A DNA stretch of 64,000 nucleotides from the NCBI GenBank assembly GCA_000002445.1, contig CM000208.1:1248001-1312000 (forward strand), given 5' to 3'. A program made the translations under genes and the position numbers. Shown in pieces: positions 17,388-58,539 of this stretch. The notes beneath the pieces are model-generated. The model was not told where the DNA came from. It made no database searches and saw only the letters and a program-made list of their open reading frames with translations. How positions within the stretch are numbered: position 1 is the first letter of the stretch; every line of letters starts with the position of its first letter. Source of the DNA: Trypanosoma brucei (lineage: Eukaryota).

Positions 17388-18932
17388 ATGTATCGGCCAA
17401 CTAACAGATGCGTGGCGGATGTGGGACAGGGAAACCCACCAAACTTACAGCAAGTTATGTATTCAGGTTCTGTGCCGCAGACGGCGCCCGTGCAAATGCA
17501 ACTTCATCCGCATCCGCAGTCGCAGTCGCATATGGTAATGCGGCCGCAAGCGCATACAATGGCGACAGCAGTGAACTCCAAACCCAAAGTTCACGTCGTC
17601 AGTCGAAGCCCACCTTCGCGAAGTGGCGCCTCTCAAGGCGAGCGTAGCGGTACCGTTCGTTTTGTGTGCCCGCGTACGAACACCATTGTGTGTGCAAGGT
17701 ATAATCGTACCGTGCACACACGCGCAAAGCTCCAGCATGGTGCAGTTATTTGTGAGGATTACATGCACAAGTTGCACTGCCCAGAGGGTGATCAATGCCT
17801 TAAGGTGCACGTTGCAGCGGAACACACATGGAACTATATTCTACCACATATTGGTGCCCCACAAGGGATTTTCCAACATGGTTTCACAGTTCGGTGTTTC
17901 CACCCCAGCATGACGGAGTACTTCAACATCCCCAGTGAACTCGTGTACTACACAAAGGGAAGCATGGAGTACATCTACGATTATAATGAGCATGGTGATA
18001 ACTCCAAGAAAAAATTTGTACTGTGTGAAGAAATGATCAATAACAGAATATGCATGTCCGGTATGGCTTGCGAGGACGTCCATGCTGTCATGGACGACTT
18101 TAGTTCCGTAGGTAGAAACAGCACACACATCGTCGATGAGAAACTGCTTCCGCTCTATCCGCGCCTTCGTCCCGATGTTGTGGTGCGTGTGTTTGAGCAA
18201 AACAGTACTGAAGAGTATAAGGACTACACTGGAGATCAGATTCTTGTGACGGATGGTGCGCGGCAGTATTTGTTGGCTCTTGATGTTGAGGGAGCCATCC
18301 CACGCAAAAAGATGCAACACTGCGCCCACTTCCGCACAAAACATCTTTGCCGCATGGGCAGTGGCTGCAACTTCATTCATGTCCTGCAAGGTCTCGTTGC
18401 GAATGCTGAAATCAGCCCACGGTCCACGTCTCGTAGTGATTCGCCAACTTCTGAACTGAGTATCAGCGTGCGCAACCGTCCAATTGCCTTGCGGCAGTCT
18501 GGCAGTCAGGTTGCAGAGATGTTGGCTGAGAAATATGGATTATCCCGGGATGAAAATAGTCAGGTAGGACGTCATGCATCTCCTTTTGTTAAGCAACCAC
18601 CGAATGAAATGGCGTCTCTCCCTCTCTGTGATGGGGGGCTCTTTCAAAGTAATACCAAATCCCAGGGAAATGCTGTTATTAACAGCAACATTAACGGCAA
18701 TTATAACAAAGAATACTGCCGGAACGACGATTTGTTTCCTTGCGGCGCAGCTGATGCCGGGGACGAGAGGGTAACGCAACGTAATCAACAGGGTGAGCAA
18801 ATACATGACGGTACGCAACCCGTTGCCGTATGCTCCAGATTCCGTCAGATAAGTCCACCACGTCGCAATAATCCATACGCTTCACCTGTTCTCAGCCAAC
18901 AGGCATCGCCACACCCTCGTGAAACCATCTAA
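17388..18932 (+). CDS. CCCH-type zinc-finger RNA-binding protein (ZC3H family) with three C-x8-C-x5-C-x3-H fingers.
   Basis: Fingers at nt 17751-17810 (CEDYMHKLHCPEGDQCLKVH), 18024-18083 (CEEMINNRICMSGMACEDVH) and 18321-18380 (CAHFRTKHLCRMGSGCNFIH). N-terminus is Q/P/H-rich. It is a paralog of the ORF at 56572. By chromosomal position it could be ZC3H30, but this is tentative. Confidence 0.8.
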   Translation: MYRPTNRCVADVGQGNPPNLQQVMYSGSVPQTAPVQMQLHPHPQSQSHMVMRPQAHTMATAVNSKPKVHVVSRSPPSRSGASQGERSGTVRFVCPRTNTIVCARYNRTVHTRAKLQHGAVICEDYMHKLHCPEGDQCLKVHVAAEHTWNYILPHIGAPQGIFQHGFTVRCFHPSMTEYFNIPSELVYYTKGSMEYIYDYNEHGDNSKKKFVLCEEMINNRICMSGMACEDVHAVMDDFSSVGRNSTHIVDEKLLPLYPRLRPDVVVRVFEQNSTEEYKDYTGDQILVTDGARQYLLALDVEGAIPRKKMQHCAHFRTKHLCRMGSGCNFIHVLQGLVANAEISPRSTSRSDSPTSELSISVRNRPIALRQSGSQVAEMLAEKYGLSRDENSQVGRHASPFVKQPPNEMASLPLCDGGLFQSNTKSQGNAVINSNINGNYNKEYCRNDDLFPCGAADAGDERVTQRNQQGEQIHDGTQPVAVCSRFRQISPPRRNNPYASPVLSQQASPHPRETI

Positions 18933-21408
18933 TTTGGAAAACCTGGAGTGTCCCTCTTATTCCACTTCCTTGCGTTTGTGTTTGTTTTGTGGACTTTGTT
19001 GTCTTTTCCGTTTTTGTTTATCTGTCTTTTTTTGTTTTTTTTTTTTACCCATCGTCCCATCATTTCTTTTCGTTTTTTCCCCCTTCCTTTCAGCTCCCTT
19101 TGCCCACGTTCGATTTATTTTCATACCTTTCCCCTTCGTTTTTTGTTTTTTCCTGCTTTTTTTTTAAAAAATATTGTGCCACCTTTTTCCCCCTTTTTTG
19201 TTTGTTTTATTCCGTTGCCGTGAGATGACATTAGTCTTTTACTGTTTTTGTTTTTGTTGTTTCCTCCTTCTTTTTTGCTGATGGCATTACGACTGTGCGC
19301 GGGAGAGAGAAGAGAAAAAAAATGGTAAAGGAGAATGTGACTGATATGTGAGGGGTGTTGAGGTAATTTATTGTTTTTTTTTTAAATAACTATTCTCCTG
19401 TTTCGTCTTATCCCCCACCAAACTCTGCTAAAGTCCTAAAATAGCTGGCGGGTTTGAGATGTGAATAAATTTTGTTTCCTTTTCACCTCCCTTTCTGCAG
19501 CTTTTTTGTCTTTTCAAGTTCCTTTTTTTTTCTTGCTTTCTTTTCCTTTTTTTTCCCCCTTTTCTTGTGCAACTGTGGTGGATGTTTGTTTTATTTGCCT
19601 GTGCGATTTGTGCGCCACTGATTGGGATGGAAAAAAAAAAAAAGGAAAAGAAAGAAAGGCAAGAGGGCGGCGGTGGTGAAAAGGAACGGAATTTGGATGC
19701 GCGTGCTTGTGTGTGTGTGAGAGAGAAAGAAAGAAAGAAAAGAGAAAGGTCATAGTAATGGTGACATCAATAATAATAATAATAATAGTAACAATAAATA
19801 TTATAATCGTAATCATAATCATGGTAATAATGGCAACGACACTAACGGAAGGGGGAAGGGAAAGGGAAAGGGAAAGGGAAAGAGAGAGAGAGAAAAAAAA
19901 AGGCAATACTATACAATTTGGTATGATATTTAATATGTGGTGTTAAGGGAGGGTGTCTTTTTTTTTCTTTTTCTCTAAGTATGTGTGTTGGGAGAGAATA
20001 TCTGAGGCTCCAGTTTTATACATCAATTAGTTTGGAAGTGTGAAATAATCGGGATGGGTAATTTTTCTTTTTTTTCTTTTTTTTTCTTTTATTGCTTGAT
20101 GCAGGAGACGAAATGCGGTGTGTGTGTAGGGGGGGGGGTCATTTTTTTTTCCCCCTTCCGTTTTCTCTTCTCTTCTCTTTTTTTTTAAATCTTGAATGAG
20201 CCGTTGTGCCGCATGTTTTGTGTTTGGTTTCCTCATTTCCATTTGAAGGACTGGGGCCGCTTTTTGTTCATTTTTTTCATTTTTTCATTTTTTCATTTTT
20301 TCATTTTTTCATTTTTTTTATTTTTCTTTTTTTTTTTTTTCATTTTTTCATTTTTTCCTTTTTTTTTTATTTTTCTCATTTTCTGGTCTTCATTTGAGGT
20401 ATGTGCGCCTCCCTTTTTTTTTTGTTTTTTTTTTTTGAACATGAGAGTTAACTGACGGATTGAAGACAAAAGACGCCAAACATTACAAGAGGGGAAGGGA
20501 AATGAATACGAGGGAGAAAGCGAAAAAGATTAAAAAAAAAAAAAGTCATTATCATCAGCAGTTGCGATGGAAAAAAAAAGGAGTGAAAAGGAAAAAAAAA
20601 AGACGAAAGCAAAAGAAGAAACCAAAAAAATAAATAAATAAATAGATAAAATGAGTAAATAAATATAAATATAAATGTGCGCGTGTATGTCAAGGGCAGA
20701 GAAAGGTGAATGCACAAAAGCTGATGTGCGCACCATGTTCTGTGATGGGGACGGAGGCTTAGATTGTATAAGTGCAAATGTATGTATGTTTTTCTTTTTT
20801 TCTCTTTTTTTCTTTTTTTACCTGGCCATGTTTCTTTGTTTTCATTTTTGGGACAATAAGCAAAAAAGTATACATATATTTATATGTGTGAAAGGTACAC
20901 AAGCAAAGAAAGAAAGAAAGAAAAATAAAAAGAAAAAAAAATATATATATATGTACACGTGTGTCTTTGTGTGTGATCCGTTGTCGAGGGGTTGTGGCCG
21001 CCTCTTGGAGCGGTTGCTTTTTTTTTTTTCTCTCTTCTTCTTTGAATTAACAAAATTTTCCGTACTTATATATTTAGAGCCCTCGTCTCGCTCAGTTTAT
21101 ATATGCCCAATTAGTGTGTCCATTGGGGGATATATTTGCTTGTGAGTTACTTAATTATACTTTTGTTTTTTGCAAAAAAAAAAACAACAATAACGGCAAC
21201 AGCTAACAAACGAAAAAGGAGATGAATGAACTGATAGGGGAGGAGCAGAAGGGAGCATCTTTTAGTTCTTTATGCCGTCAAACCCCAAATTTTATTTGTG
21301 TATTTTTTCTTTTTTCCATTTTGTTGTTTCTTTTTCTGAGATTTTTTAAAAATTAAAAATGATCGTGATAGGCGGAGGAAGGGTAAAACATAAATACATT
21401 TACATGCA

Positions 21409-21440
<32 letters not shown>

Positions 21441-24400
21441 TATATGCATATAATTGTATACATATGTGCCCACCTCCCCTTCCCTCCCCTCCCCCCAAAA
21501 TAAAAATAAAAATAAAATAAAATCATCCCTATCACACTTTTTTTTCTTTTTCTTTTTCTCACTTTCCTTTCTTTACGGGCTCCTCTATTCGGCATGCTTT
21601 CCTCTTATTTTCACCAATTAAGGGGAAGATGGAGGGGAGTGGTGGGGCTTGTTTTATTATTATTATTATTTTGGCAATTTGCTTTCATTCAATTTCATTT
21701 TATTTGCAGTTTCTTCTTTTTTCCCCCTTGTGTGTGTGTGTGTGTCTTATCGTTATTATTATCATTATTATTATTATTATAAATATTCCGGTTCTTTTCC
21801 TATTTATTCCGGCGCGTTACATATATATATATGTTTTGTGTCCTTTTACATTGATGTTCATGTTTTTTATTTTCCTTTTCTTTTCTTTTTTGCCACTGTG
21901 ATGATGACCGATGGCGCCAGTAATTATTATTATTATTATTATTTTTACCACTAGCGCTACCACCATAATTATTTTTGATATTATTCTTGATGTGTTTCAC
22001 GAAGGAGGAGAAATAAAACGAAAAATTTGTTTTTTTTTCTTTTAAGAGAGGTAAAAGGTAAGCGAATATAATTATATAATAGGAAGTGTACATCACAAAT
22101 GAAGGTTTAGAGTTGAGGAGTGCGTGTGGTGACGGCAAAAAAGAAAAAAAAGAAATAAATGCAAAATCCAAAATGTCACATAAAGTAAGGTAAAGAGATA
22201 AGGTAAGAAGTGAAATGGAAAAAAAAAAGAAGAAAAGAAACCAATGGACCGTGGGCTACACGCAAAGCGACAGTGGAGTTGCAGTGCAGGGAAACGGAGT
22301 GGGAATGAGAAATGTGTCTACTTTATTTTTATTTTTATTTTTCGTCTTTTCTCAATTTAAAAGACAAAAAAGAAAAGAAATATTTTTATTTTGTTCTTTT
22401 TATTATCTTACCTTACCTCACTTTTTCTTTTTGTTTCCTCTTTATCCTTAATGACAGTTTATCGTATCCTTTACGTTTCCCGCTCCAGAGCCAAATCCTT
22501 AAATCCCTTTTCCTTTATATGTTTATTTATATATTTATTGTTTTTTTTATATGTTTTCTCCCCTTTGCTTCAACACTTAGAAGGTATGATGTGCGAGGAT
22601 GTTGGTGTGGTGTAAAACGAAATCAAAAAAAATATAATAATAATAAATGAAAAAAATGAAGAAAAAATAAAAGATGAAAAACTGGTGGAGTTGTACAATA
22701 GAAATAAATAAAAAAAAATATATATATATATAAGCGGGTTATAGTTGTCTTCATACGTTGTCTTGTATATCCGCTCTTTATACGTTTACTATTTTTATTT
22801 TCATTTTTTTCTTTCGTTTTCAATGAATGAGCACATTTATATATATATATATATATATATAGATATATATTTCTATTTATATACACACAAACAGTCATGC
22901 AGTTATACACTTATGTCTTATATACTCTCTTTCACACACCATAAATTATATACACATGTCACATTTTTTTTCATTTTTTTTTTTGAACTGGAGATCTCTC
23001 TTATTGATTTCATTATATACTTCTCATTTTTTTTCTTTTTAGTGGTGTTATGCTGATGTTTGTGCTTGTGTATTTGTATTATTGTGCCCGTGATTTTCTT
23101 TATTATTAACATTATTAATAGTAATAATATTAATATTATAATATTATTATTATTTGATTTTATTCGGATTTATACTCTCCTCCTTTTTCTTTCTTTTCTC
23201 TTTTGTTATATGAAAAAAAAAATAACAAGAAAAAAGTTGTTTTTCGTCAACTGCTTGAAGCAACCACCACAACAACGGCAAATGTTTTATTGTTGTTGAA
23301 GTCGGAAATATTTTTCCGTAACCCTATCGTATATGATGTTGTAGAGATTTAGGTGCCAACTTTTTTTTTTTAAATTTAATTATTTATTTAATTAATTGTT
23401 TATTCTCCTCCTACTTTCACTTTTCTTTAATTTTGTTGTGATGCAAATTTTGGAAAGTAGATTTCTGTTGGGACAGAAAGAAGAAAAGTGATAGAAAGAC
23501 ACGAGAAAATAAAAATAAAAGAAAATAAAAAGAGACTTCAAAAAGGCAAGAAAAAAAAAGAGAAAAAAAGAAAGAGAAAAAGAAGAAAAGTAGAGAGAAA
23601 CAAGAAACATGAAAGATATGTTGAATGGTACCGTTTGTTTTTTTTTTTTGCCGCGGTGGCATTTCAAATATATCTTTTTTTTTCAATTTTTCAAAACTTT
23701 AATAGAGAGAAGCAAAAAATGAAAGAAAATCAAAAGAAATGAAAGAAAATAAAAGAGAACAAAAACGGAAGGGAATTGGACAAGTTGTTACGAAGTTGCG
23801 CTGAAAAAAAAAACCCATAGGAGAACATTTGCGGGGTGATTCTTTTTGTTTTTTTCTAGAGAGAAAATGTTTTTTTTTCTGGTATGATCGTAATAGTAAT
23901 AATATTGACAATAATAATAATAATTGTTTTTTTTGTTATTGTGTATTTACTTTTGAGTTTATTACTGCTGCAATTAAAAAAAAAAAAACACCACCAACAA
24001 CAACAACAACAACACACACACACAGGAAGGGAGAGGAGGGATGAGAAGAAAAAGGGAGAAAGAAAAGAAAAGAAACCGTTATGAGGTAAGACCTCGGATT
24101 TACCAAGCGTTTTTTTTTCTTGTTTGCTTGCTTGCTTGCTTAATCAATTAATCAAATTTTTATTTTGCTTTGTTTTATTCCACGCGTTTGCTACGATTTT
24201 TTTCTTTTTTTTCTTTTATTGTCATCATTTGTCATGATGATTCTTACTATTAATATTCTGTTGAACCCACATCCTTCCTCTATTCCATTATCTTATATTC
24301 CTCTCTCTTATGTTATGTTATGTTTCTTTTTTTTTTTTACTTTGCTCAACTTTAATTCGCAAACAAAAAAAGAATGAGGGGGGGGGAAAAAAAAAAATAC

Positions 24401-26339
24401 TCCCCTACTGGTCGTTATTTCTCTCATCTCGGTCGCACAACGCTAATGGTTTAGAGGCCGATTTGAATGAATGAATGAGGTGAAATCATTTTGCTTTTTT
24501 TTTCTTTTCGTTTTCGATTTCGATTTTGTTTTTTTTATTCATTTAAATTTATATACCCACGTGCGTTTACGCACGATTATACTGACGAGGATTTGTTGTC
24601 GTGTTATATAACCCTTCTTTTTTTTTTCGTGTGTGTGTTACCTCTAGTATTATTATTATTATTCCTGTCATTCCCATTATTATTATTATTGTTGTTATTA
24701 TTATTATTATTTCAAAATTCATGGGATGTGAGACAGTCGGTAGCACTAAATTTCAATATTTGCTTACTTTTATTTTATGTTTATGTTTAACTTTTTGTTT
24801 TTTTAAAAATTTGATAGGGATGTGGTTAAGTTGGTGGTGTGGGGCATCGATTAAATGAAATATGTTGTTGCTTTGTAGATGCTCTGCTCCTTCTACCTTT
24901 CACCTTCCCTTTTCTTTTCTTTTTTCTTTTTTCTTTTTACTATTATTATTATTATTTGGTTGGTTTCACTGTGCGTGTTATTACTTTAAGGTTTTTTTTT
25001 CCTTTTGTCACTGTAATTAAATTCTTGTTAAACAGTTGGGCTACTTAATATTCTTTTCTTTTTTTTTTCTCTCCAACCAAAAAAAGAAAAAAAAACGTTA
25101 TAAATGGCTACAGAAATGGAAGAAGAGGTGTTAGTTGTGCTTTTGTTTTGTAATGTAAGCAACTCCCCCTCCCCCACCTTTCAAAAAAGAAAAAAAAGAA
25201 AAGAAAAAAATATATACAAAAGGGACCGCGTGTTTGTGTTTTTGTGTCTCTTTTTTTTTCTTTTTTTTCTTTTTTGAAAGGTGGGGGAGGGGGAAGGGGG
25301 CGGGGCGGGGAAGGGAAGGGAAATTGAAAATTAAGATGAGGCAAAAGAAGACACTTTTTTTTTTAAAAAATTTCTCGTGTTTAACTTTATAGTTTCTGTT
25401 TGTCATTTGCATGCAGTTGCACATTAATAAATGTATAAATACACACCAATATGCATACGAATGTGAATATCATCTTCATTTCTCTTTTTTCCTTTTCTTT
25501 TCTCTATCTATCTTTTGTTTTTTTTATTTCAAAAAAAAAAAAAAACTACCTTCATTAGTTTGCGTAGAGGACGTGTGTGGCTTACTACCGTCTTCATCGC
25601 CGTACAGGTCAGGCGCACAACGGAAAGAAATTTGAGGTTCGTTACTTTTTTGCTCTTTTTTTTTTTAAAAAAAAAAAGATATTGGTTATATTTGGATAGG
25701 GCGAATATCACAAACTATTTTCGTTTTTGGTTTGCTTTGCTTGAGAAGAACGCACACATTTATTTATATAAATACATATAAATAAATAAAAAAAGGAACG
25801 AAAGAAAGAGTGAAGGAGTAGTGGGAAGGACAGGAGTAAGAAGACGATATATATATATACACGCACACAAAAAACAAAAGCAAAAGCAAAAGAAAAAAAA
25901 GAAAGAAAAAAAAGAAAGAAAGAAACAAGGAAGGGAAATTAGACACTCTCTTCCCCCCAAGGGGTACCCGCTTCATAGATATTATAAAGGAGCGAGAAAC
26001 CAAAGGTTGGAAGTGAAAGAAAGAGGAGGAGGAGTAAAAGGGGAGGGGGAAAAAAAAGAAAGAAAGCGAAGAATACAATCAAACAAACAAAACAAGGCTG
26101 GGAGAAAGTGAAAAATAGCCCGTAATCGTACGACTTACAATATTTGTTCCAGAGGCTCGCACATCTCCACTCCTCGTCCGCTTTGTTGAGTGACAAGGGA
26201 AGGTTAACAAAAACATACCGCTTCAAAAGGAGGGGAGGGAAGGGAAAAGAAAAGGCGACAATATTTAATTTTCCTTCAGAAGGGAGGACACCGTGTCCGG
26301 TAGCGCAGGCCTCTTTTTTTTTTTTTCTCCAAATTTTGT
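18933..26339. other. ORF-free low-complexity tract of about 7.4 kb. It is presumably long UTR or intergenic sequence of the polycistron and is packed with microsatellites.
   Basis: No non-repetitive ORF on either strand. Alternating poly-pyrimidine and poly-purine blocks. Embedded repeats include (TTTTTCA)n at 20266-20360, (GGAAAG)n at 19857-19885, (TA)n at 21409-21440 and 22838-22870, and (TATTAT)n. Confidence 0.7.
26311..26335 (+). promoter_or_regulatory. Poly-T tract upstream of the 1098-aa gene: candidate splice-acceptor polypyrimidine signal.
   Basis: ctctttttttttttttctcc directly upstream of the first ATG at 26355. Confidence 0.4.
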
Positions 26340-34289: not shown

Positions 34290-34316
34290 ATGTGTGTGTG
34301 TGTGTGTGTGTGTGTT
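34290..34316. repeat. (TG)n microsatellite.
   Basis: tgtgtgtgtgtgtgtgtgtgtgtgtg seen directly. Confidence 0.9.
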
Positions 34317-47104: not shown

Positions 47105-48356
47105 AGAAACAGCTGATGTGTTTTACATTGCCCGTAAGGGAGAAGGCGGGCACTGTTAATCATAGAGGACACATGCATGGGGAAGTTGCTGCTCGTGTGA
47201 GTAACATATTGACAGTGACATTAGAAGCGAGTGCGGGCATTTATTGTTCTTCGGTGCTAAACTCTAGTGAGTACGTTTCGGTGAGTTGTGAACTGATGTG
47301 GGCGTTCCCTTGTGTTGTGATACTGCATTTCTCCGCCTTTCGACTTGTTTGTATGAAAACTACATTTGTAGTTGCCACTATCACACTATTGTGCGTCGAC
47401 GTGCCAACACTTTTTCTTTGTCATCTGTTTTGCTTTTTTTTTTCGTTTCTCTTCAAACATCCTTTTCGGTGTTCGTGCACCGCTCATCCGATCGGTGGGG
47501 GTCTCGTTTTGTGCGATCTAATTTTCGATTAGCGGAGGTAGTGTTTCCTTTCCTTCCCCATAGGTGGATGGTTATCATTCCATTTCATCTTCTCTATTTT
47601 TAGTATTTTGATTATCCCTTAATGCCACTGCATGTGTTAATTCACTGTTTGCTGCCCACCGTTCTGCCACTTTTTTTTCCTTTCTCCTTCTTTTACTTTT
47701 TTAAACATTGTCTGTACTTACCCTTTGTCTCTCGGTAGGTGTAAAGAAGGGGTACTCTACACCAACTTTTTGTTAGCCTCCTTCTTAGTTTAAACTAGGG
47801 GTTCAGAATCCTTATTTTCCCCCTTCCCTCCCCCCCAAAAAAGGGAAAACAAAGCAAATCAAAGGAAGGGAGAAGGGGTTACGGAGTTAGATATATAGAT
47901 AGGGGGGAAAGTGAAGGTGTGTCCTCCTGCCGAGAAGTAAAGCAAAAAAGACAGGAAAGGTAGAATAGAAGTGGGAAAGGAAAGGAGGGCGCATCCCCGC
48001 CACTTAGCATTACACATTGTTCTATTTCACCCTTTTTTATTTCGAAATTTTTGTTGGTGTCGTTGTTATTGTTATTGTTATAATTTTTTTTTGTATTCTC
48101 TTTGTGTTATTGTGGCCCGCGTGCTTGTGTGGTGGGAGAGTGACATACGTACATTCAAGTTTTTGGTCGGCTCATTTCTTAGTTGGAGCGAGAGGACGTA
48201 CTTGCGCGCACGCACACACAAACAAACAAAAGGGTTGACAGACACAAAGCAACTCCATACATTGGTGTGGTGGAGGTTCGGGAGTATTTTATATAGCACT
48301 CCCCTACACTGTTATTTGCCTTTTCCTCCTTTTATCTCGCGTGTGGCTGAAATACG

Positions 48357-51300: not shown

Positions 51301-53465
51301 TGGAGGATCGTGTGGAACCGGACTGGCCGATTGAGGTGGCCTCTTTTATAACATTTATTCGCCGTGATGCTGACGTCAGCTTTTGCATCTGTGATGCGGG
51401 CCAGGAAGATAAGGTTGAATATACTGCCAACCTGGCCGCAGCTGACTTAGGAGAGAATAGGGGTGTTGGCCTTCGGAAGTTGGTCATGCATCGTGGGGCT
51501 ACGGAATCTAATGATGAAATCAATGAGACCAAAGCCACTATTGAGGTGTGCATGATGGCCGTTACTACTTCCAAGCACCACGCACTGCAGAAGCATCTTG
51601 ATGAGGAGGAGGACGCTTGCAAATCATCTGATGACTTTAGTGCAATCTACCTGCAGGTACTGGGGGTGAAAGGCTTAAAGCATCGTATAGAGGCTGCCGT
51701 CCATATTAGTGTGGAGATGGATGGGAAGACAAAAGAGGTTCTGCGCACCCATAAGATCGCACCCAAAACACGCTCTCCCGCGTGGCCGGGGCAAACCAGT
51801 TTTTGTGTTGCTCAGGGGGACGGTGTAATCAGTTTTGATCTTTTCCATCGCGACACGTTTGTGGCGTCGTACGATACTTCCGTCGACACTCTCGCATTTG
51901 GCGGTACCGGTGTGCAGTGTTTACCTCTCCTTCGCGCTCAGGGGACCGGCGGGGACCCCTATGGCGACTTGTATGTTTCCATTCTTGGAACCAAAACACC
52001 ATGTGGGGAGGAGGACGTCGTGGAGCGACCGTCGAAGTTGCTTGTCGTGCATGTGGAGGCGCTTTCTCTACGCCAAAATCTGGATTTAGAGTTTGTACCT
52101 GATCCATTTGTCATTATCCGGGGCCCCAAAGGGGAGGTAATTATGCGCACCGCAATGAACTTTGGTACGTATGAGGCGAAATGGTCGGAGGAACGTGCTT
52201 CTTGCTTCATCCTTTGCCCCTCGCTCCCCGGTTGCGTCGTAACGTATCACTTGGAGGTGTATGACAACAATGAGTCGAGCAAGATTGGTGAAGCAACAAT
52301 GACGGTTACCGTGAACGGCACAAAACGCAATCGTATGATGCTTGACATTGGGGGAAAGGGACTACTCACAGTGGTGGCTCATTCGTTTCCAATACAAGAT
52401 GTTATCAGCCACAGCCAACCGCCTGGATCAGGTCTTACCAATCACCTCACCGACACCTCCAGCTCTAGTATAGAAGAAGGTTACTTCTTGCAGGTTCATA
52501 TTTGTAGTTGTGAGAGCCTTCAGGGGACTGGGTTTGATGATTTCCAGATTGACCCTGTCGTAACTGCACGGGTTGGACGGAAGCGTATTGTAGTTGCACC
52601 ACTCGTGTCGGGCTGTACGGCACCCCAGTGGAAGTATCCGAAAGCCACTTTTGTCCTTCCGTTTGTCCCTGACGTTCTCAGCCATATCGTTTTGGAGGTT
52701 TGGGACACCAACATCGAGCTATGCGATGTTCTCGGCGTCGCCCGCCTTCCAATGGAAGAGATATGCCGAACTGGAACACACAAATACACTCTGCAGCCAC
52801 ATAAGGATCAAGAGTATGGTCGGCGCAGGGATTTAGGTACCATTGTGGTAAACACTCGGTTCGGTCGCGTAAATGGAGCTGTCGTTTCTAAGGAGTCGCC
52901 CTTGTTCTTTTCAGCGGGCTCTTCAGGCTCAGGTATCTTTCGGTCCCGTTTATTTCCTTCTACGAATAGGGGGCCAAACCTCCCCATCACTCGAGTCCGT
53001 TTGCACATATCCAGCTGCTGCTCTGCCGTATCCGCATGGCCTTTCGACTTTATAAAGGTGACATTAACATGCCTTCATCATGTTTTGCTTGAGGTGCGTA
53101 AATCCTGCAAAGATGAATTCTTCGTCGCATGGTCCGTTGATGATGCGCAAACTATCGTGGACCTTAGGGCCATATACGGACGATCCCTGCGACTCGCTGT
53201 TTCTGGTGGAAAGGAAGAGACTGGACGATTAACAACCCACATTGGCGCCGCGCATTTGCCCTTTTCAACGCTGGCATCAGCGTCCCCGGAGGTTGTCTCT
53301 GTGCGGAGTTTACCACTAGTAGACCAGGCAACTGAGGAACGGAGTAGCGGGAGTAGAAGTGGTCGGCGATGTGTAACTCCGAGTGTTTCAGCGCAGGAAC
53401 CTAGTATAACCGTGTCCCTTCTTGCGCTTGATTCTGACCACTCTGTGAGCTTGGGAAGTGAGTAG
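48357..53465 (+). CDS. Giant (1702 aa) protein with cyclic-nucleotide-binding domains and multiple C2-like domains.
   Basis: Two clear cNMP-binding domains with an FGE signature at about nt 49170-49470 (...GPGAAFGEVSVIF...) and a GEL signature at about 49560-49860 (...STGFVGELFL...). A degenerate N-terminal one is at about 48510-48870 (VLFGEV). There are three or more C2-like beta-sandwich segments (about 51640-51960, 52020-52230, 52480-52800). Confidence 0.85.
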   Translation: MTLIPQNPYRMSFSRCNNERKASIPLQPTNTNGGISADNTGVDLKAHRVTPFTTTFGRRHTLYGETEIREAKETLAKLFVPVAKLGMYRLRRSRLHKKNSELRSYTIDSIVQAYRSSNSIISTWPMDVLTLLAEGAQYHYLEDGEVIVYAREWYLSTGIIVVLFGEVQETLPKSEKNFTPNKTSGNIRHPERSVLCEQTVLCRDFAPSRLKAHGYADVAVIPARWVWDAINYTSMEPFAEGMLDSLRMTVAPLCESVLERTYFPTALTLRRSWLWSFFSAGERIRLARLMEVKVFCAGDTLFGEGDRNPYVYIIRRGAVRVVVCKEPILDFGPGAAFGEVSVIFDEPRCCHAIATCLCEVYCLHRRHIMKRLRKKAHVCDSVIGTALRRREQWLEDAKTRHVMSLTVLLGGVPCLSQATEKVRAAIAEKAKTVVLPPRQVLFKKGTLCDHLFIVGRGTLLMEGAEDTVATRTSTGFVGELFLHPHLWPTDVTSLTSVDGWMFHVDVVKDALDSINAREQAVDICRQGIELYRAQYGPESVMEPTPAPRKLGPARKGTTAFSSGAKQSNSLRQKGQPRSPSLPSTPRLVAVAKTTPVKEEPLEKFDWNAYAIEDKVALPSADTDESDKRSERQQTEHVIEAELGGQAGSLLSAGVGLGISAIDCDFSDEVDEMRQMLLEQALLIPSNRLLFFLRQINRSKVTLVVDDGAVVTGECSLETTVGDDLTFPQYVLPPSVVYTLDNVNTYNVDGAPFNGEDVLNDTNRQLADGVGTTAHRRARTPEVALVTPDFMSTFRSTDEMANTTLKGQQFGGLSLFLRSGRPCSGLSGKHHLQHSSSLYGTLRRRSLSGVSRNYTPYPQTPFTPDVHGSTQYSFSNIYTRLNSVDYTQQAKITASALQSALDRFVKLDDQNYFQQVVRVCLPTEAEQQLITEEVGSGGKSSCDLILLLMHVRKCEGLQLSDDMQYPIVKVYTKTRVLIRTPIMEDRVEPDWPIEVASFITFIRRDADVSFCICDAGQEDKVEYTANLAAADLGENRGVGLRKLVMHRGATESNDEINETKATIEVCMMAVTTSKHHALQKHLDEEEDACKSSDDFSAIYLQVLGVKGLKHRIEAAVHISVEMDGKTKEVLRTHKIAPKTRSPAWPGQTSFCVAQGDGVISFDLFHRDTFVASYDTSVDTLAFGGTGVQCLPLLRAQGTGGDPYGDLYVSILGTKTPCGEEDVVERPSKLLVVHVEALSLRQNLDLEFVPDPFVIIRGPKGEVIMRTAMNFGTYEAKWSEERASCFILCPSLPGCVVTYHLEVYDNNESSKIGEATMTVTVNGTKRNRMMLDIGGKGLLTVVAHSFPIQDVISHSQPPGSGLTNHLTDTSSSSIEEGYFLQVHICSCESLQGTGFDDFQIDPVVTARVGRKRIVVAPLVSGCTAPQWKYPKATFVLPFVPDVLSHIVLEVWDTNIELCDVLGVARLPMEEICRTGTHKYTLQPHKDQEYGRRRDLGTIVVNTRFGRVNGAVVSKESPLFFSAGSSGSGIFRSRLFPSTNRGPNLPITRVRLHISSCCSAVSAWPFDFIKVTLTCLHHVLLEVRKSCKDEFFVAWSVDDAQTIVDLRAIYGRSLRLAVSGGKEETGRLTTHIGAAHLPFSTLASASPEVVSVRSLPLVDQATEERSSGSRSGRRCVTPSVSAQEPSITVSLLALDSDHSVSLGSE

Positions 53466-53631
53466 CGTATGCATGACATCTCTTAAGTCACTAAAGTGTT
53501 CCCCTCTCGTTCCACACTGTTTCCCCAACCCATTTGATTAACTCCTTTTGGTTGCTTGGTGAGTACGTATGTGTGGTTTTTGCGTATCATTTTATTTTAC
53601 ACACTACTCCTTCCATTCCCTCCTCGGCTAC

Positions 53632-53635
<4 letters not shown>

Positions 53636-53664
<29 letters not shown>
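53636..53664. repeat. (TA)n microsatellite.
   Basis: atatatatatatatatatatatatatatat seen directly, just downstream of the giant cNMP/C2 gene. Confidence 0.9.
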
Positions 53665-53668
<4 letters not shown>

Positions 53669-56571
53669 CCTTCTGCACGCTAACATCCGCAGAACTGCTT
53701 ACTGCAGAATTTGGGCAGGTGTCACCACAGAATGTAACTACAGAGGTACGGGCGAGTGAGGGCCCTGGAGAGGAATGGTGATGCGCCCCACAAACTGCGC
53801 TATGTTTATTGTTACCATTATTATTTTCATTACCCCCACTACAGTTATCACTATTAATTCCCCTCCCGTTTTTTCCCTTCCTGCTCGTTGTCACCGCCTC
53901 CCCCAAACTCTCTGTTCGCACCTCACCTTTTTCTTTCCTTTCGTCTCTGCGTTTATCCGTCTACATTTTTGTTTCTTGATTCGCCTTTGACGTTGACTCT
54001 GAATTTTTTTGTATTTGGTTGCTTCTTTCCGAGTGTTTGATCGAAAATATCTTGCACATATAAATAAATAAATATTTATGTTTATTTGTTCGTTTGCCCA
54101 TGCGTGTGCTGAGGTGTGGTCGCTTCCCCTCCTTTTATTATTACCATTATCATTATGTTGTCATTGGTATTACTACTCTCCTGTTGGTGTCACTACGTTT
54201 TTTCTCAGTTTTTGCATTTTGAGAAAAATAGCGTTTTGATTCGTTGGAGCGGGGTGGTGGCGCGAACAAACAAACAAAAAAGAAACACAGAAAAAAGTAA
54301 GCACCAGCATTAACTCAGAATGAGAGAGTAATACACCTGCAGAATGCACGCACAAAACACAGGAAATGATACAAATCCAGTGAAATGAATGCGCAAAAAG
54401 ACTGAGAGAATCGAATATGTCTGAGCAGATAGTGAATATGCCACGTGCTCACGGAATTACATAGTCAAACGCACGCATTACTGAAAAGAAGAAAACCGCC
54501 CTACACTTTTCTTTTGTTCCCCACCCCCGCATTTATTTAACCGCACTCAAGCAATCATAAGTGGACATAAAGGTAAAAGAGTTGAGTATATGTATAAATA
54601 AATTCGTATATTTATAATTATGTAGGATAACTTATGTAAAAATGCAGACGGAGCTAACTAAGAGAGCGGGAGAAGAGAAGGAGAATGAACGGGGTGGCAC
54701 CTGAACGTTTTTTTTTTTCGTACATCGGCATATATATATATATATATATTTATTTATAAATATATACAAAACCGTTTCTGACGAAAGAGAAGAAAGCGAA
54801 GGAGGAAGGAAAAAAAGAGGGAAAGGAATTTATATACTTGTATATGTTTACTCGCGTGCACTTGCTGACTATGAGTAGATGGTTTAACCGCGTAGAAGGC
54901 TTCACCACACTTTTTAGGTCTTCTTCGTTTTCCCTCCCTTCCGTTCCTGTCGCTATATGTGTTCGCAATTCCCTTCATATTTTAATTATCTTCATCCTCA
55001 TTGTTGCCGTTGCCATTGTTGTGTCTTACTTCATTACATATATATATATATATGTACATGCACACTAACACACGTATTTGTTTTCTCTCTCTCTCCCTCT
55101 TCCTCTTAGTTTCTTTTTTCCTCTTCCCTATCCTTTGCTTAGCCGCTGCTTCTCTTATTGTTGCAACTGGCTGTAGAGTAGATGAGAGGAGTTAGGATCA
55201 TATCGACACCTGTGTGTCCGCATACGTGTGAACGAAATGTCTTTCTTAATACCAAACATACCTAAGACACGGAATATAATAGCATCACTTTTTTTTTTTT
55301 TAAAAAGGAAATAGTGTCAGTAGTGTCAACCATATTTGTGTGGCTTTACAACTACGCCTTCCCATGCGGGATGAGCTGCAAGAGAAGATTGTAAATAACG
55401 ATAATTAGAAGGAACGTACCAAAGATGATAAAGACAAAAAAACTTTTTTTTTCCCGTCTCTTCCTTTGAATGTGGGTTACCACCAGCCCTCAGAGGAGAT
55501 GAGGGATGTAGCGACTAAATGACCGAAAAAAAAGATGCACAGACATAAAAGTATGAAGGGGTATAACCAGTCAAACTTTGAGGGGAAAGGGGATAATTGC
55601 GGTCAAGGCGCCACTCTCGCGATAAATAATTAAATATAAATATCTGGTTTGATACACCTCTCGCTTCCTTCAAAAAGACATTTTTTTTTGCTTTTTGTTT
55701 TTTGTCAGCGTTTTGACTATTGTCATTGATTCTCTTATCGATAATTTGGCCTCATTTATATATCTCCGCTTTTTCACTTGCTTGAAAATTTTTTGTTTGA
55801 TTGTTTTTAGGTGAAGGGAAGTCAGAGTTTCTCTGGAAGCCGCAGCAGCAAAGAGGTATTGCCACCTATTTGTGGATTACTAAGAGTGCGCGCTTGCGTG
55901 GTGAACAGGGGGAACTGTCTTTTTTTCCCTTTTTCCTCCTTTGAGGGAAGAAAATAAAAAAAAAAGAAAAAGTAAAGACAAAAATAACCGGAAGACACAC
56001 CCGCCCACGCACACACACACACACAAAAAAAAACGAGGAAAGCAAAGAAAAGAGAAGAGTAAAGGGGGAAAAATAGCATCAAAAACAAAAGGACCAAGTG
56101 AAGGAAGGAACGTTGAACGATTTGCTTTGAGGTGAAGTGAGTGGCATTTTCTGCACATTCATATCACTAACTGACTCACTCATACATCTAAAACGAAGGA
56201 AAGAAAGAAAGGGAGGGAGTTTCAGGAAATTGTGTCGTGGTGAAAAGACGGAGAGGAATATATATATATATATATATATATATAAGGGTGTGGGAGCAGT
56301 TGCCGCTACTTGTGCTGTTCTCTAGTGTTTAATCGCATAGTAACGGCGCGGGAAACTTGCCCACCCCCTCTGCTGTCTCAGGTGGTTCAACTGTATTGAC
56401 TGAAGCTGGTGCTAATTCAGACCCCGGAGAAGCGAGCAGGTCGAGGGGAAGTGGAATATATTTAAGTATATTTATACCACAGGAAGATACGGGCAGAGGA
56501 AACGGCAGGGGTAAAAATTGTGGCAAAAAAACAGAGGAAAATAAAGGAATAAGAAGGGGAAGGAAAACATC

Positions 56572-58539
56572 ATGTCTGGCACTAATCACCTCCGTCAGGT
56601 GGTTCCCGCAGCCGTTTACAACCCAATACCTCCTGCACCACCGTTCATGGTGTTTTGCGACCCGTACGCGAAGGTCGCCAACGCTACTGCAAAGTACAGG
56701 AATCAACCGCCAGTCGCACCGAACGCTGCCGCTGTTTTTCAGCAGCAACTCTACAGTTTACCTTTTCATGGTGTTGCTGGGGTTCCCGCCCCTATGCGTG
56801 AAGAAGAGGACGCTGATGGGTCTTTTGAGGTTCACGACAGCTGCCTCAAGGCACCTATTACTGTAGGGCGTCGAGTTGTAATCCCCACTACCGGAAGCCG
56901 TGGCCTTTTCAACTGTGCGCAGCTTCCAAGTAATGGAAACAGTGGTGGTAACTGCAATAACAACTCCAATAGTAACGGGAATGGTGGGAAAAGTTTCGCG
57001 CGAATTTGTGACGCCCATCCCGAGGGAAGGTGTATTTCAGGTGAACAGTGCCCTGACATTCATGTGCAGGCCGAGTACCTAACTGCTCAGCGACAGGAGA
57101 TGATATTCTGGCTTGAAAGTAAGGAACGTGAGTTCCAGAACACACTGCGTGCGGATCCGACCAAGATGTTCCGTGTGTTCTGTGCGGACCTTAAAGAGGC
57201 CGTGGAAGTCCCGATTAGCGCGTTGCAATTCACTAAAGGTCTATACGTGGATCCGTCGGTTCGGGCTCGCCGGGCGCGTGCGGGTCATCAGAACCAGTTC
57301 GCGATGTTAGCCTCGCAGTTACCAACTGCCTGCGGATTGTTTCTTAGCAACCCTTCGCAGTGCAGGTGGGCCCGTTGGTGTAACCAAATTCATGTCGACT
57401 TCACGTGGATGCAGACGAAGAAGAAAGAGTTTGAGTCGTGGTTCAACGAACTGGAGGGACGCTTCAATGCACTTCCCGATGACTACGAGTTTCATGTGCA
57501 CGACCCACAGCTTAAAATGGGTTTAAGAATTCCGAAAGCAAGCATTGCTGTCTTTTCTCGTGGTCTCTTTCAGGGATCGCCGAAGAAGGCGCCGAGTGTC
57601 TGCATGCTCTTTCAACGGGACCGGTGCACAGCAAATGTGTGCTGCAATCAAATTCATGTGATACCGCGGTACTTAGCTTTGCATCGACTTTTGATACAAA
57701 AAGGGGACAGCATTACTGAAGAGGAGCGCGGGAACATTATGAATCAAATGAAGGAGATACTGGAGTCGCAGAAGCGGAGCATGCAGGTTGCGGACGATGG
57801 TGACGCCAACTTTCTCGCAAGGGAGCTAAATCCTCAGGCCGTACCGTACGTCCCACCGCAGCCAACAAGTGTGTGGCGCACGGGGGGCTCTGCGGGTAGC
57901 AGCAGTCCACCACGGACAGCAGCGGCTCCCATTCCTGTTCCCGAGCCCCTTCCAACATTCCGCCAACCACCGCAGTGGAACGAACACTCACCTTCAGCTG
58001 CTGTGGATGGCTCTCCGTACGCTTCCCCTCACCGACGCGTTGAAAGGTGTGGTAGCAGCGGCACGCGGGACTTGCACACCTGTTCCAATCCACTGGAAGA
58101 TTTGATTGAGTTCGTGGATGGGGACAAGTCGCGTACGTCTCTTCTCGCAAGTCAGAGTACAACGAGTCAGGCTAGTCGCAGTTGCAAGCACACCAATAAC
58201 CCTTATGCGTTTGGTGCGAGCTATAAATGTACCGCATCACCCACTTTTGGATGGGTCCAACCTGTTTACAGTGCAGCAAATAGCGGCTCGACACATCCAG
58301 CGAACCGCTCGTGGGGAAGTGGCAGCGTTACAGGCGGGTGTCAACCCATTCGAGTGCGTGTAGGAGGTGGTGGAATTATGGAACATGAACCGTTGGAGCC
58401 CTTTTCTTTGGATCAACACGATATGGGTGCCAGTCCCTTTGAATGTCGCTCACCAGCGCACCGGACGTTGGGATCAAGAACTATAGAAGACCGCCTCAGT
58501 TCTTCGCCAACGTGGAGTGCCACGCAGAAACAGAGATGA
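56572..58539 (+). CDS. CCCH-type zinc-finger RNA-binding protein with three fingers; a paralog of the gene at 17388.
   Basis: Fingers at nt 57007-57063 (CDAHPEGRCISGEQCPDIH), 57331-57393 (CGLFLSNPSQCRWARWCNQIH) and 57601-57657 (CMLFQRDRCTANVCCNQIH). The inter-finger linker FRVFCADLKEAVEVPISALQFTKGLYVDP is similar to the linker FTVRCFHPSMTEYFNIPSELVYYTKGSMEY of the 17388 protein. The C-terminus is Ser/Pro-rich. Confidence 0.8.
   Translation: MSGTNHLRQVVPAAVYNPIPPAPPFMVFCDPYAKVANATAKYRNQPPVAPNAAAVFQQQLYSLPFHGVAGVPAPMREEEDADGSFEVHDSCLKAPITVGRRVVIPTTGSRGLFNCAQLPSNGNSGGNCNNNSNSNGNGGKSFARICDAHPEGRCISGEQCPDIHVQAEYLTAQRQEMIFWLESKEREFQNTLRADPTKMFRVFCADLKEAVEVPISALQFTKGLYVDPSVRARRARAGHQNQFAMLASQLPTACGLFLSNPSQCRWARWCNQIHVDFTWMQTKKKEFESWFNELEGRFNALPDDYEFHVHDPQLKMGLRIPKASIAVFSRGLFQGSPKKAPSVCMLFQRDRCTANVCCNQIHVIPRYLALHRLLIQKGDSITEEERGNIMNQMKEILESQKRSMQVADDGDANFLARELNPQAVPYVPPQPTSVWRTGGSAGSSSPPRTAAAPIPVPEPLPTFRQPPQWNEHSPSAAVDGSPYASPHRRVERCGSSGTRDLHTCSNPLEDLIEFVDGDKSRTSLLASQSTTSQASRSCKHTNNPYAFGASYKCTASPTFGWVQPVYSAANSGSTHPANRSWGSGSVTGGCQPIRVRVGGGGIMEHEPLEPFSLDQHDMGASPFECRSPAHRTLGSRTIEDRLSSSPTWSATQKQR

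What the first reader, a model, noticed from the sequence alone, without database searches (positions are those of the whole stretch)
17388..58539. Two paralogous triple-CCCH zinc-finger proteins 39 kb apart in one transcription unit
ORFs 17388-18932 and 56572-58539 each carry three CCCH fingers (the first uses C-x8-C spacing, the second C-x7-C or C-x9-C). The sequence linking finger 1 to finger 2 is clearly related between them (F.V.C....F.IP...L..TKG). Both have Q/P-rich N-termini. This points to an ancient duplication of an RNA-binding regulator. Both copies sit inside unusually long non-coding flanks.
Basis: seen in the sequence. Interest (0 to 1): 0.55.

Follow-up and report, generated by a model that had tools for sequence, protein, structure and literature searches.

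The report
Trypanosome ZC3H31 and ZC3H32 genes
The two ORFs are the already named Trypanosoma brucei mRNA-binding proteins ZC3H31 and ZC3H32, and they are real but very old relatives that share a repeated "hairpin module plus CCCH finger" unit and an MKT1-docking NNPY motif.

Summary
ORF 17388-18932 (514 aa) has three C-x8-C-x5-C-x3-H fingers. ORF 56572-58539 (655 aa) has C-x7, C-x9 and C-x7 fingers. Both match annotated Trypanosoma brucei-group proteins at 100% identity: ZC3H31 (Tb927.10.5150) and ZC3H32 (Tb927.10.5250), the latter studied by Klein et al. 2017.

Pairwise BLASTP is weak (E=0.008). Profile comparison supports homology beyond the finger:
- The cores align at 97.6-98.2% probability (E 3e-12 to 3e-14).
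- With the fingers removed, the pre-finger modules still match (E about 1e-5, 6-9 SD above column-shuffled controls).
- Intermediate kinetoplastid proteins bridge the two families.

AlphaFold2 models (pLDDT 86-87) give all six units the same element order. No solved structure or Pfam model covers the module.

Both proteins also carry a C-terminal NNPY motif, and both are published MKT1 two-hybrid partners.

Finger spacing is conserved across orthologs. Both families are found across Kinetoplastea, and there is no nucleotide similarity between the genes, so the split is ancient. Whether the ancestor already had three units is unresolved.

The long flanks are real and also present in T. melophagium. 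They fit the known long 3'-UTRs of trypanosome RNA-binding-protein mRNAs.

The genes are known. The shared extended-CCCH unit is a modest new point.

The parts
17388..18932 (+). ZC3H31 (Tb927.10.5150) coding sequence, 514 aa
   Evidence: Translation. 100% identity and coverage to the annotated T. b. gambiense protein P0001. Gene identifier and name from PMC3985637.
17643..17810 (+). ZC3H31 unit 1a: degenerate hairpin module (aa 86-121) plus finger 1 (aa 122-141, C-x8-C-x5-C-x3-H)
17865..18083 (+). ZC3H31 unit 1b: hairpin module (aa 160-212, ...FTVRCF..YFNIPSELVYYTKGS...) plus finger 2 (aa 213-232)
18150..18380 (+). ZC3H31 unit 1c: hairpin module (aa 255-311) plus finger 3 (aa 312-331)
18867..18878 (+). 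NNPY (aa 494-497, context RRNNPYA), a putative MKT1-docking motif
   Evidence: ZC3H31 is listed as an MKT1 two-hybrid hit with motif NNPY in PMC3985637.
56572..58539 (+). ZC3H32 (Tb927.10.5250) coding sequence, 655 aa
   Evidence: Translation. 100% identity to P0014. Length, finger spacings and NNPY position match Klein et al. 2017, PMC5435347.
56809..57063 (+). ZC3H32 unit 2a: hairpin module (aa 80-145, FEVHD..APITV..VIPTTGS, with an N/G-rich disordered insert) plus finger 1 (aa 146-164, C-x7-C-x5-C-x3-H)
57148..57393 (+). ZC3H32 unit 2b: hairpin module (aa 193-253, MFRVFCADLKEAVEVPISALQFTKGL) plus finger 2 (aa 254-274, C-x9-C-x5-C-x3-H)
57463..57657 (+). ZC3H32 unit 2c: hairpin module (aa 298-343, EFHVHDPQLKMGLRIPKASIAVFSRGL) plus finger 3 (aa 344-362, C-x7-C-x5-C-x3-H with a CC doublet)
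58195..58206 (+). NNPY (aa 542-545, context KHTNNPYA), a putative MKT1-docking motif
   Evidence: PMC5435347 and PMC3985637.
13833..17387 (+). 3.56 kb gap upstream of ZC3H31. By inference it holds the upstream kinase gene's 3'-UTR, the intergenic region and the ZC3H31 5'-UTR.
18933..26339 (+). 7.4 kb AT-rich gap downstream of ZC3H31 (GC 0.32), presumed to be a long 3'-UTR. It contains a 156-aa ORF with no family match (20675-21145) and a (TTTTTTCA)n array (20262-20382).
53466..56571 (+). 3.1 kb gap upstream of ZC3H32
58540..64000 (+). Gap of at least 5.46 kb downstream of ZC3H32 (GC 0.33), presumed to be a long 3'-UTR. It runs to the end of the window.

Best explanation
The window is a Trypanosoma brucei chromosome 10 segment with all gene-like ORFs on one strand. 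The two ORFs are the known cytoplasmic mRNA-binding proteins ZC3H31 and ZC3H32.

They are distant homologues. Each has a core built from three copies of an extended unit. By AlphaFold2, the unit runs: beta-hairpin, short 3-10 turn, strand, helix starting at a conserved T-x-G-S/A, a two-residue strand, the CCCH knuckle, and a final strand (x-H-V). A disordered tail follows, carrying an (R/T)-N-N-P-Y motif.

Inferred mechanism:
- The three extended CCCH units bind single-stranded mRNA.
- The tails recruit effectors. NNPY docks MKT1, and through it the MKT1-PBP1-LSM12-PABP activating complex.
- ZC3H32 also has N- and C-terminal repressing regions that dominate in bloodstream forms.

The two genes come from one ancestral gene with at least two such units. 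It was probably duplicated locally, before the radiation of Kinetoplastea. Since then the copies have diverged to about 20% identity, with different finger spacings and opposite published net effects in reporter tethering assays (ZC3H31 fragments activate, ZC3H32 represses).

The long non-coding flanks are the long UTRs typical of trypanosome regulator mRNAs.

Shown here: gene identity, fingers, conservation of spacing, profile-level homology including the module, the common secondary-structure order, enrichment of the motif, and conserved linkage and flanks in T. melophagium.
From the literature: RNA cross-linking, tethering effects and the MKT1 two-hybrid interactions.
Inferred: RNA binding by the module-plus-finger unit, the local duplication, and the UTR assignment.
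For: Identity:
- 100% matches to annotated T. brucei-group proteins.
- Length of 655 aa, x7/x9/x7 fingers and NNPY near aa 541, as described for Tb927.10.5250.
- Tb927.10.5150 is ZC3H31 with motif NNPY.

Homology:
- hhalign of the family alignments gives 89.7% probability, E=1.8e-6.
- With deep profiles, the three-unit collinear alignment gives 97.6%, E=3.4e-12 over 232 columns. The two-unit alignment gives 98.2%, E=3.4e-14.
- Column-shuffled and reversed controls score 14 +/- 3, against 86-92 for the real alignments.
- With fingers removed, E is 1.2e-5 to 6.9e-5, 6-9 SD above shuffles.
- The intermediates P0161, P0143, P0102 and P0087 score 35-41 bits on the ZC3H32 profile. Their alignments span module plus finger.

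Structure:
- AF2 cores have pLDDT 85.7 and 87.2, pTM 0.71 and 0.77. All six units show the same element order.

MKT1 motif:
- [HN][ND]PY occurs in 68 of 157 ZC3H31-like representatives, against 1.8 expected (maximum 7).
- It occurs in 20 of 36 ZC3H32 family members, against 0.34 expected.

Antiquity:
- ZC3H32 orthologs reach Bodo saltans.
- ZC3H31-like proteins occur in the Prokinetoplastina Apiculatamorpha and Papus.
- There is no nucleotide similarity between the genes or between their flanks.

Linkage and flanks:
- In T. melophagium both genes lie on one contig and strand, 36.4 kb apart, with the same neighbours. The gaps flanking them are 1.6-5.5 kb.

Literature:
- ZC3H32 cross-links to poly(A) RNA, represses when tethered, is essential in bloodstream forms, and shows only weak MKT1 association in vivo (PMC5435347).
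- ZC3H31 fragments activate in the tethering screen (PMC4055773).
- TcZC3H31 knockout blocks metacyclogenesis (PMC7045066).
- RNA-binding-protein mRNAs have 3'-UTRs of several kb, against a median of about 400 nt (PMC6597758).
Against: - Pairwise BLASTP is marginal (E=0.008).
- Sequence-to-profile scores between the two families are only 4-30 bits.
- ZC3H32 is not among the 150 representatives listed in the ZC3H31-profile search, all of which have E <= 5.7e-15.
- The unit-to-unit matrix is not cleanly diagonal. The best cross pair is 1b~2a, and 2a~2c are closer to each other than to any ZC3H31 unit. A simple duplication of a three-unit gene is therefore not demonstrated.
- The models could not be superimposed. 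Only the order of secondary-structure elements was compared.
- Klein et al. found no sequence-specific RNA targets for ZC3H32, and less than 1% of it is associated with MKT1.
- UTR boundaries were not mapped here.
Confidence: 0.85

Rival explanations
1. The domains are homologous, but the triple architecture arose independently. The common ancestor had one or two extended CCCH units. ZC3H31 added unit 1a at its N-terminus. ZC3H32 gained a third unit by internal duplication or insertion (2a/2c duplication, with 2b divergent). On this view the two genes are not copies of a three-finger gene.
For: - Most of the 407 relatives match only profile positions about 130-315, that is units b and c. Only 34 of 157 cover unit 1a.
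- 2a~2c is the strongest pair of all (E=3.9e-13). 1b~1c is E=1.4e-11.
- The best cross pair is off-diagonal, 1b~2a at E=2.1e-12.
- The two-unit alignment that skips 2b scores better than the three-unit collinear one (3.4e-14 against 3.4e-12).
- The module of 1a shows no similarity to any ZC3H32 module.
Against: - A collinear three-unit alignment over 232 columns is also highly significant.
- Module-only matches 1b~2b and 1c~2c lie on the diagonal.
- Many representatives are fragments from short contigs, so the count of two-unit proteins is inflated.
Confidence: 0.4
2. The two proteins are unrelated CCCH proteins. The resemblance is the generic finger plus chance or convergent features of the linkers, and the proximity on the chromosome is coincidence.
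For: - BLASTP gives only E=0.008.
- Pfam sees nothing but sub-threshold finger matches.
- Individual module-only comparisons are modest (63-81% probability).
Against: - Finger-free module scores are 6-9 SD above column-shuffled controls in three separate unit pairs.
- Bridging sequences align over module plus finger.
- All six units have the same predicted element order.
- Both proteins share the N-for-H variant of the MKT1 motif at a similar position.
Confidence: 0.08
3. This is a recent segmental duplication or a case of gene conversion within T. brucei.
For: The two genes lie on the same strand of the same chromosome, 39 kb apart.
Against: - There is no nucleotide similarity between the coding sequences or the flanks.
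- Amino-acid identity is about 20%.
- Each gene has its own orthologs across Kinetoplastea.
- The nine gene-like ORFs between them include unrelated housekeeping-type genes, and T. melophagium has the same neighbouring genes.
Confidence: 0.01

Closest known systems
T. brucei ZC3H32 (Tb927.10.5250), Klein, Terrao & Clayton 2017 (PMC5435347)
   Same: ORF2 is this protein: 655 aa, fingers x7/x9/x7, and KHTNNPY near aa 541. It is a cytosolic mRNA-binding repressor that is essential in bloodstream forms and has orthologs out to Bodo.
   Different: Nothing differs in the gene. The paper describes the fingers as separated by predicted alpha-helices. It does not mention the repeated hairpin module or any relationship to ZC3H31 ('ZC3H31' and 'paralog' each occur 0 times in its text).
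ZC3H31 (Tb927.10.5150; T. cruzi TcZC3H31; Leishmania LINF_360013000)
   Same: ORF1 is the T. brucei member. It is an MKT1 two-hybrid partner with NNPY (PMC3985637). Its fragments activate when tethered (PMC4055773). The T. cruzi orthologue is needed for metacyclogenesis (PMC7045066).
   Different: The T. brucei protein has not been characterised individually in the papers I could search.
ZC3H11 and other HNPY-bearing MKT1-recruiting RNA-binding proteins of trypanosomes
   Same: A CCCH RNA-binding part plus a short H(E/D/N/Q)PY-type motif that docks MKT1-PBP1-LSM12-PABP.
   Different: ZC3H11 has a single finger and no hairpin module. ZC3H31 and ZC3H32 have N in place of H in the motif. ZC3H32 represses overall, and very little of it is bound to MKT1.
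TTP/TIS11 tandem CCCH zinc-finger proteins
   Same: C-x8-C-x5-C-x3-H fingers (in ZC3H31) that bind single-stranded mRNA and control its decay or translation.
   Different: TIS11 fingers are 18 residues apart and have a (R/K)YKTEL lead-in (my own knowledge). Here the fingers are 70-90 residues apart, and each is preceded by a structured hairpin-helix module.
Torus domain of Cwc2/RBM22 (Pfam PF16131)
   Same: A CCCH finger embedded in a larger fold. This is the most frequent Pfam match in the superfamily (22 of 27 members at E<=0.01).

Membership tests
CCCH (C3H1) zinc-finger proteins | C-x7-9-C-x4-6-C-x3-H ligand pattern | tested here: met
   Three per protein. The ligand residues are invariant or nearly so in orthologs.
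CCCH (C3H1) zinc-finger proteins | Pfam zf-CCCH (PF00642) match above the gathering score | tested here: not met
   ORF1 scores 11.6 bits against a cut-off of 20.5. ORF2 has no hit. Relatives in the superfamily do match (17 of 27 at E<=0.01). The fingers are divergent ('non-canonical' in PMC5435347).
CCCH (C3H1) zinc-finger proteins | Zinc coordination and RNA binding | not testable with these tools
   Literature only: ZC3H32 cross-links to poly(A)+ RNA in vivo (PMC5435347).
ZC3H32 orthologue group | Sequence identity to Tb927.10.5250, with x7/x9/x7 fingers and a conserved core at about aa 199-373 | tested here: met
   100% identity to P0014. 36 family members reaching Bodo saltans. Features match PMC5435347.
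ZC3H31 orthologue group | Sequence identity to Tb927.10.5150, with three x8 fingers and C-terminal RRN(N/D)PY | tested here: met
   100% identity to P0001. Orthologs in 8 or more Trypanosoma species have the same spacing and motif. I assigned the gene identifier from three facts: ZC3H31 has motif NNPY in PMC3985637, its number is adjacent to ZC3H32, and it lies ten gene-ID steps upstream. This was not checked against TriTrypDB.
MKT1-interacting proteins with the (Y/W/T)(R/T/Q)H(N/D)PY motif | Presence of the motif | tested here: inconclusive
   Both proteins have x-R/T-N-N-P-Y, with N in place of the consensus H. The review gives H(E/D/N/Q)PY as necessary and sufficient (PMC6597758). Singh et al. 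nevertheless list NNPY as the motif for both proteins.
MKT1-interacting proteins with the (Y/W/T)(R/T/Q)H(N/D)PY motif | Physical interaction with MKT1 | not testable with these tools
   Literature: both are two-hybrid positive (PMC3985637). For ZC3H32, less than 1% is co-precipitated in vivo (PMC5435347).
Torus domain (PF16131) | Match above Pfam's gathering score (29 bits) | tested here: not met
   12.7 and 16.6 bits. The one match with a reported stretch (ZC3H32, aa 330-366) covers only the finger region.
TTP/TIS11 tandem zinc-finger family | Two fingers 18 residues apart, each with a YKTEL-type lead-in | tested here: not met
   The first cysteines are 91 and 99 aa apart in ORF1, and 108 and 90 aa apart in ORF2. 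There is no YKTEL lead-in. The family definition is from my own knowledge.
Proposed ZC3H31/32-type extended CCCH unit (not a curated family) | A hairpin-strand-helix module with a conserved h-V-h...P...V/L..T.G(S/A) pattern immediately before the finger | tested here: met
   Present before 5 of the 6 fingers at sequence level, and before all 6 in the predicted secondary structure.

The most novel reading that the evidence does not exclude
The hairpin-strand-helix module fused to each CCCH finger may define an undescribed, kinetoplastid-wide extended CCCH RNA-binding domain. A profile of the ZC3H31 family found 407 cluster representatives at E<=1e-3. Those representatives that carry a source name are all Kinetoplastea. 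No Pfam model and no solved structure covers the module. The domain is habitually coupled to an MKT1-docking H/N-N/D-P-Y motif. ZC3H31 and ZC3H32 would be its two divergent representatives in T. brucei, and the module would help determine RNA specificity.
Probability: 0.45. Interest if true: 0.45.

Novelty: already known. Interest (0 to 1): 0.25.

Why it matters
Both genes are annotated and named, and ZC3H32 has its own functional paper. As a gene finding this is ordinary.

The small added value is the evidence that the two proteins share an extended, repeated CCCH unit and an NNPY tail. This could help in three ways:
- It may help explain why ZC3H32 showed no simple sequence-specific RNA target.
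- It gives a defined domain boundary for structural work on trypanosome CCCH regulators.
- It suggests testing ZC3H31 and ZC3H32 for overlapping or competing RNA targets, given their opposite effects in reporter tethering assays.

Tried and rejected
- Pairwise BLASTP of the two proteins was too weak to decide.
- Pfam on both proteins gave only sub-threshold Torus and zf-CCCH matches.
- Foldseek against AFDB was not available, so the test of whether one family's model retrieves the other could not be run.
- A PDB sequence search with the ZC3H32 profile found only the RBM22 finger, at E=0.015.
- The third word-indexed homolog search, with a diverse two-unit alignment, returned only 11 proteins and no further T. 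brucei member. That search is limited by its word filter.
- RBP10-type UA(U)6 motifs are not enriched in the flanks: 0.14-0.28 per kb, against up to 3.4 per kb elsewhere in the window.
- There is no shared nucleotide element between the two sets of flanks.
- Rfam found no RNA families in the window.
- Recent duplication was rejected.


Full report
**1. What is there**

Both ORFs translate as described. ORF 17388-18932 gives 514 aa and ORF 56572-58539 gives 655 aa, both on the + strand.

A pattern search finds three fingers in each protein:
- ORF1: three C-x8-C-x5-C-x3-H fingers, at aa 122, 213 and 312.
- ORF2: C-x7-C-x5-C-x3-H at aa 146, C-x9-C-x5-C-x3-H at aa 254, and C-x7-C-x5-C-x3-H at aa 344.

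Each protein also has an NNPY motif in its C-terminal tail, at aa 494 and aa 542.

**2. Identity**

ORF1 is 100% identical over its full length to an annotated Trypanosoma brucei gambiense protein. It has orthologs in T. grayi, T. melophagium, T. cruzi, T. vivax, T. conorhini, T. rangeli and Angomonas.

ORF2 is 100% identical to a protein annotated as 'zinc finger protein family member' in T. equiperdum. It has orthologs throughout the trypanosomatids and in Bodo saltans.

Klein et al. 2017 (PMC5435347) describe ZC3H32 (Tb927.10.5250) as a 655-residue protein with C-x7, C-x9 and C-x7 fingers and KHTNNPY near residue 541. That is ORF2.

Singh et al. 2014 (PMC3985637, Table 4) list both Tb927.10.5150 (ZC3H31, motif NNPY) and Tb927.10.5250 (ZC3H32, motif NNPY) as MKT1 two-hybrid partners. 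ORF1 lies ten gene-ID steps upstream of ORF2, so I assign it to ZC3H31. The assignment rests on that position and on the motif. It was not checked against TriTrypDB.

The nine gene-like ORFs between them are unrelated to each other where they can be identified. They include an XPC-binding-domain protein, a TPR-DnaJ protein, a TFIIH Tfb2 subunit, an Arf-like GTPase and a cNMP-binding/C2 protein, plus four with no Pfam match. A protein kinase gene lies immediately upstream of ZC3H31. All are on the + strand. This is consistent with one polycistronic unit but does not prove it.

**3. Are the two proteins related beyond the finger?**

Pairwise BLASTP gives only E=0.008 over finger 1 plus the following linker.

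Comparing the two family alignments with hhalign gives 89.7% probability, E=1.8e-6. The register is shifted: ZC3H31 linker 1 plus finger 2 aligns with the ZC3H32 segment before finger 1 plus finger 1. That pointed to a repeated unit made of a module followed by a finger.

I cut both families into six units and compared them.
- Repetition within each protein:
  - 1b~1c gives E=1.4e-11, and 6.5e-7 for the module alone.
  - 2a~2c gives E=3.9e-13, and 6.3e-6 for the module alone.
- The cross-family match 1b~2a gives E=1.9e-9.

A profile search of 1.84 billion representatives with the ZC3H31 family found 407 proteins at E<=1e-3 and 195 at E<=1e-10. Most match only units b and c. The representatives that carry a source name are all Kinetoplastea: Lotmaria, Strigomonas, and the prokinetoplastids Apiculatamorpha and Papus. 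ZC3H32 orthologs are not among the 150 listed. They score only 4-30 bits on the ZC3H31 profile.

Several intermediates score 35-41 bits on the ZC3H32 profile: P0161, P0143 from Apiculatamorpha, P0102 and P0087. Their alignments run through the hairpin module and the finger of ZC3H32 unit 1.

Using these sequences to deepen the ZC3H31-side profile gives:

| Comparison | Result |
|---|---|
| Unit 1b~2a | E=2.1e-12 |
| Unit 1c~2c | E=1.9e-8 |
| Module only, 1b~2a (finger columns removed) | E=1.2e-5 |
| Module only, 1c~2c | E=6.9e-5 |
| Whole core, three-unit collinear | 97.6%, E=3.4e-12, 232 columns |
| Whole core, 1b-1c on 2a and 2c | 98.2%, E=3.4e-14 |

Controls:
- Column-shuffled templates score 8 +/- 2 (maximum 15) for the modules, against 20.7-25.8 for the real comparisons.
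- For the whole cores they score 14 +/- 3, against 86-92 for the real ones.
- Reversed templates score 7.6-15.1.

The similarity outside the generic CCCH motif is therefore real, although it is visible only with profiles.

**4. Structure**

AlphaFold2 models of the two cores are confident:
- ZC3H32 aa 80-375: pLDDT 85.7, pTM 0.71.
- ZC3H31 aa 80-340: pLDDT 87.2, pTM 0.77.

In both models every finger is preceded by the same elements: a beta-hairpin, a 3-10 turn, a short strand, and a helix that begins at the conserved G-S/A. A two-residue strand then abuts the first cysteine, and a strand lies at the final x-H-V. ZC3H32 also has long helices after fingers 1 and 2.

**5. Conservation**

Finger spacing is fixed within each family:
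- The ZC3H31 family is x8/x8/x8.
- The ZC3H32 family is x7/x9/x7 in 33 of 35 orthologs. T. conorhini and T. rangeli have lost the finger-1 cysteines, and Angomonas finger 1 reads x7-x4-x3.

The tail motif is RRN(N/D)PY in all Trypanosoma ZC3H31. In ZC3H32 it is (K/R)HTNNPY in most Trypanosoma and K(R/Q)NNPY in Bodo saltans and in several unnamed metagenomic or assembled relatives.

Across the wider superfamily, [HN][ND]PY occurs in 68 of 157 representatives. Residue shuffles give 1.8 on average, with a maximum of 7. In the ZC3H32 family it occurs in 20 of 36, against 0.34 expected. The coupling of this RNA-binding core to an MKT1-type docking motif is therefore widespread and old.

**6. Age and origin**

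- The two genes and their flanks share no nucleotide similarity.
- In T. melophagium the two orthologs sit on the same contig and strand, 36.4 kb apart, with the same neighbouring genes.
- Both families extend beyond the trypanosomatids.

The split therefore predates the radiation of Kinetoplastea.

Whether the ancestor already had three units is open. The collinear three-unit alignment and the diagonal module matches favour a three-unit ancestor. The stronger off-diagonal 1b~2a and within-protein 2a~2c matches, and the prevalence of two-unit relatives, favour independent gain of the third unit. I give the independent-gain route 0.4.

**7. Flanks**

The four gaps next to the two genes are 3555 and 7407 nt for ZC3H31, and 3106 and at least 5461 nt for ZC3H32. 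They are the longest gaps in the window. The others are 411-2783 nt.

The T. melophagium orthologs are flanked by gaps of 3.1 and 5.5 kb (ZC3H31) and 1.6 and 3.5 kb (ZC3H32). Neighbouring gaps there are 0.3-1.2 kb.

Clayton 2019 (PMC6597758) states that many mRNAs for RNA-binding proteins have 3'-UTRs of several kb, against a median of about 400 nt. This is the ordinary explanation. UTR ends were not mapped here.

**8. Function (from the literature)**

ZC3H32 (PMC5435347):
- It is about 20-fold more abundant in bloodstream forms and is essential there.
- It cross-links to poly(A) RNA.
- It represses translation and destabilises a tethered reporter, through its N- and C-terminal parts and not the finger core.
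- It showed no sequence-specific RNA targets, and under 1% of it is associated with MKT1.

ZC3H31:
- Fragments activated in the genome-wide tethering screen (PMC4055773).
- T. cruzi ZC3H31 is needed for differentiation to metacyclic forms (PMC7045066).
- The Leishmania orthologue co-purifies with DRBD2 (PMC8575317).

**9. Verdict**

However, these are known, named genes. The added points are the shared extended CCCH unit, the shared NNPY tail, and the size of the kinetoplastid superfamily around ZC3H31. They are modest and need structural superposition and a proteome-wide census to firm up.

Noticed in passing
window 57601-57657 (ZC3H32 aa 344-362): Finger 3 contains an invariant CC doublet (CTANVCCNQIH; C357 and C358 are both invariant in 23 orthologs). 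The ligand spacing can therefore be read as x7-x5-x3 or x7-x4-x4. Klein et al. give x7-x4-x4 in the text and x7-x5-x3 in the figure legends.
   Followed up: partly
P0022 (T. conorhini) and P0023 (T. rangeli), ZC3H32 orthologs, alignment A2 columns about 270-295: Both lack the cysteines of finger 1, while fingers 2 and 3 are intact. This suggests that finger 1 is dispensable in that lineage.
   Followed up: partly
P0012 (Angomonas deanei ZC3H31-like), alignment A1 columns about 405-430: Finger 2 is replaced by a sequence without cysteines, and a long insert follows. It could be an assembly or annotation artefact or a real loss.
   Followed up: no
window 20262-20382: A tandem array of about 13-14 copies of TTTTTTCA lies in the AT-rich region downstream of ZC3H31.
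   Followed up: no
window 20000-26000: This is the most AT-rich stretch of the window (GC 0.27-0.32). It contains a 156-aa ORF (20675-21145) with no Pfam match. By the step-of-ten gene numbering, this ORF may be the ninth annotated gene between Tb927.10.5150 and Tb927.10.5250.
   Followed up: partly
P0050-P0193 (relatives of ZC3H31): H/N-N/D-P-Y motifs, typically (W/Y/R)-R-H-N-P-Y, occur in 68 of 157 representatives, at either the N- or the C-terminus. This is about 37 times the shuffle expectation. Three distinct clusters (P0143, P0187, P0190) come from the single species Apiculatamorpha spiralis, so the family is expanded in some free-living kinetoplastids.
   Followed up: partly
model m56c2d2655dde (ZC3H31 aa 80-340): The non-significant Foldseek hits against the PDB (E 0.5-4.4) are dominated by ubiquitin-like beta-grasp proteins, including tandem ones (ISG15, FAT10, SUMO, linear di-ubiquitin). 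This may hint at a beta-grasp-like packing of the module.
   Followed up: no
window 56011-56025 and 56261-56284: (CA)n and (AT)n microsatellites lie in the gap upstream of ZC3H32.
   Followed up: no
PMC5435347, section 'Conservation of ZC3H32': The paper's text places KHTNNPY at 'residues 138-145'. In the sequence the motif is at aa 539-545, and the paper's own figure legends say 541-545.
   Followed up: yes
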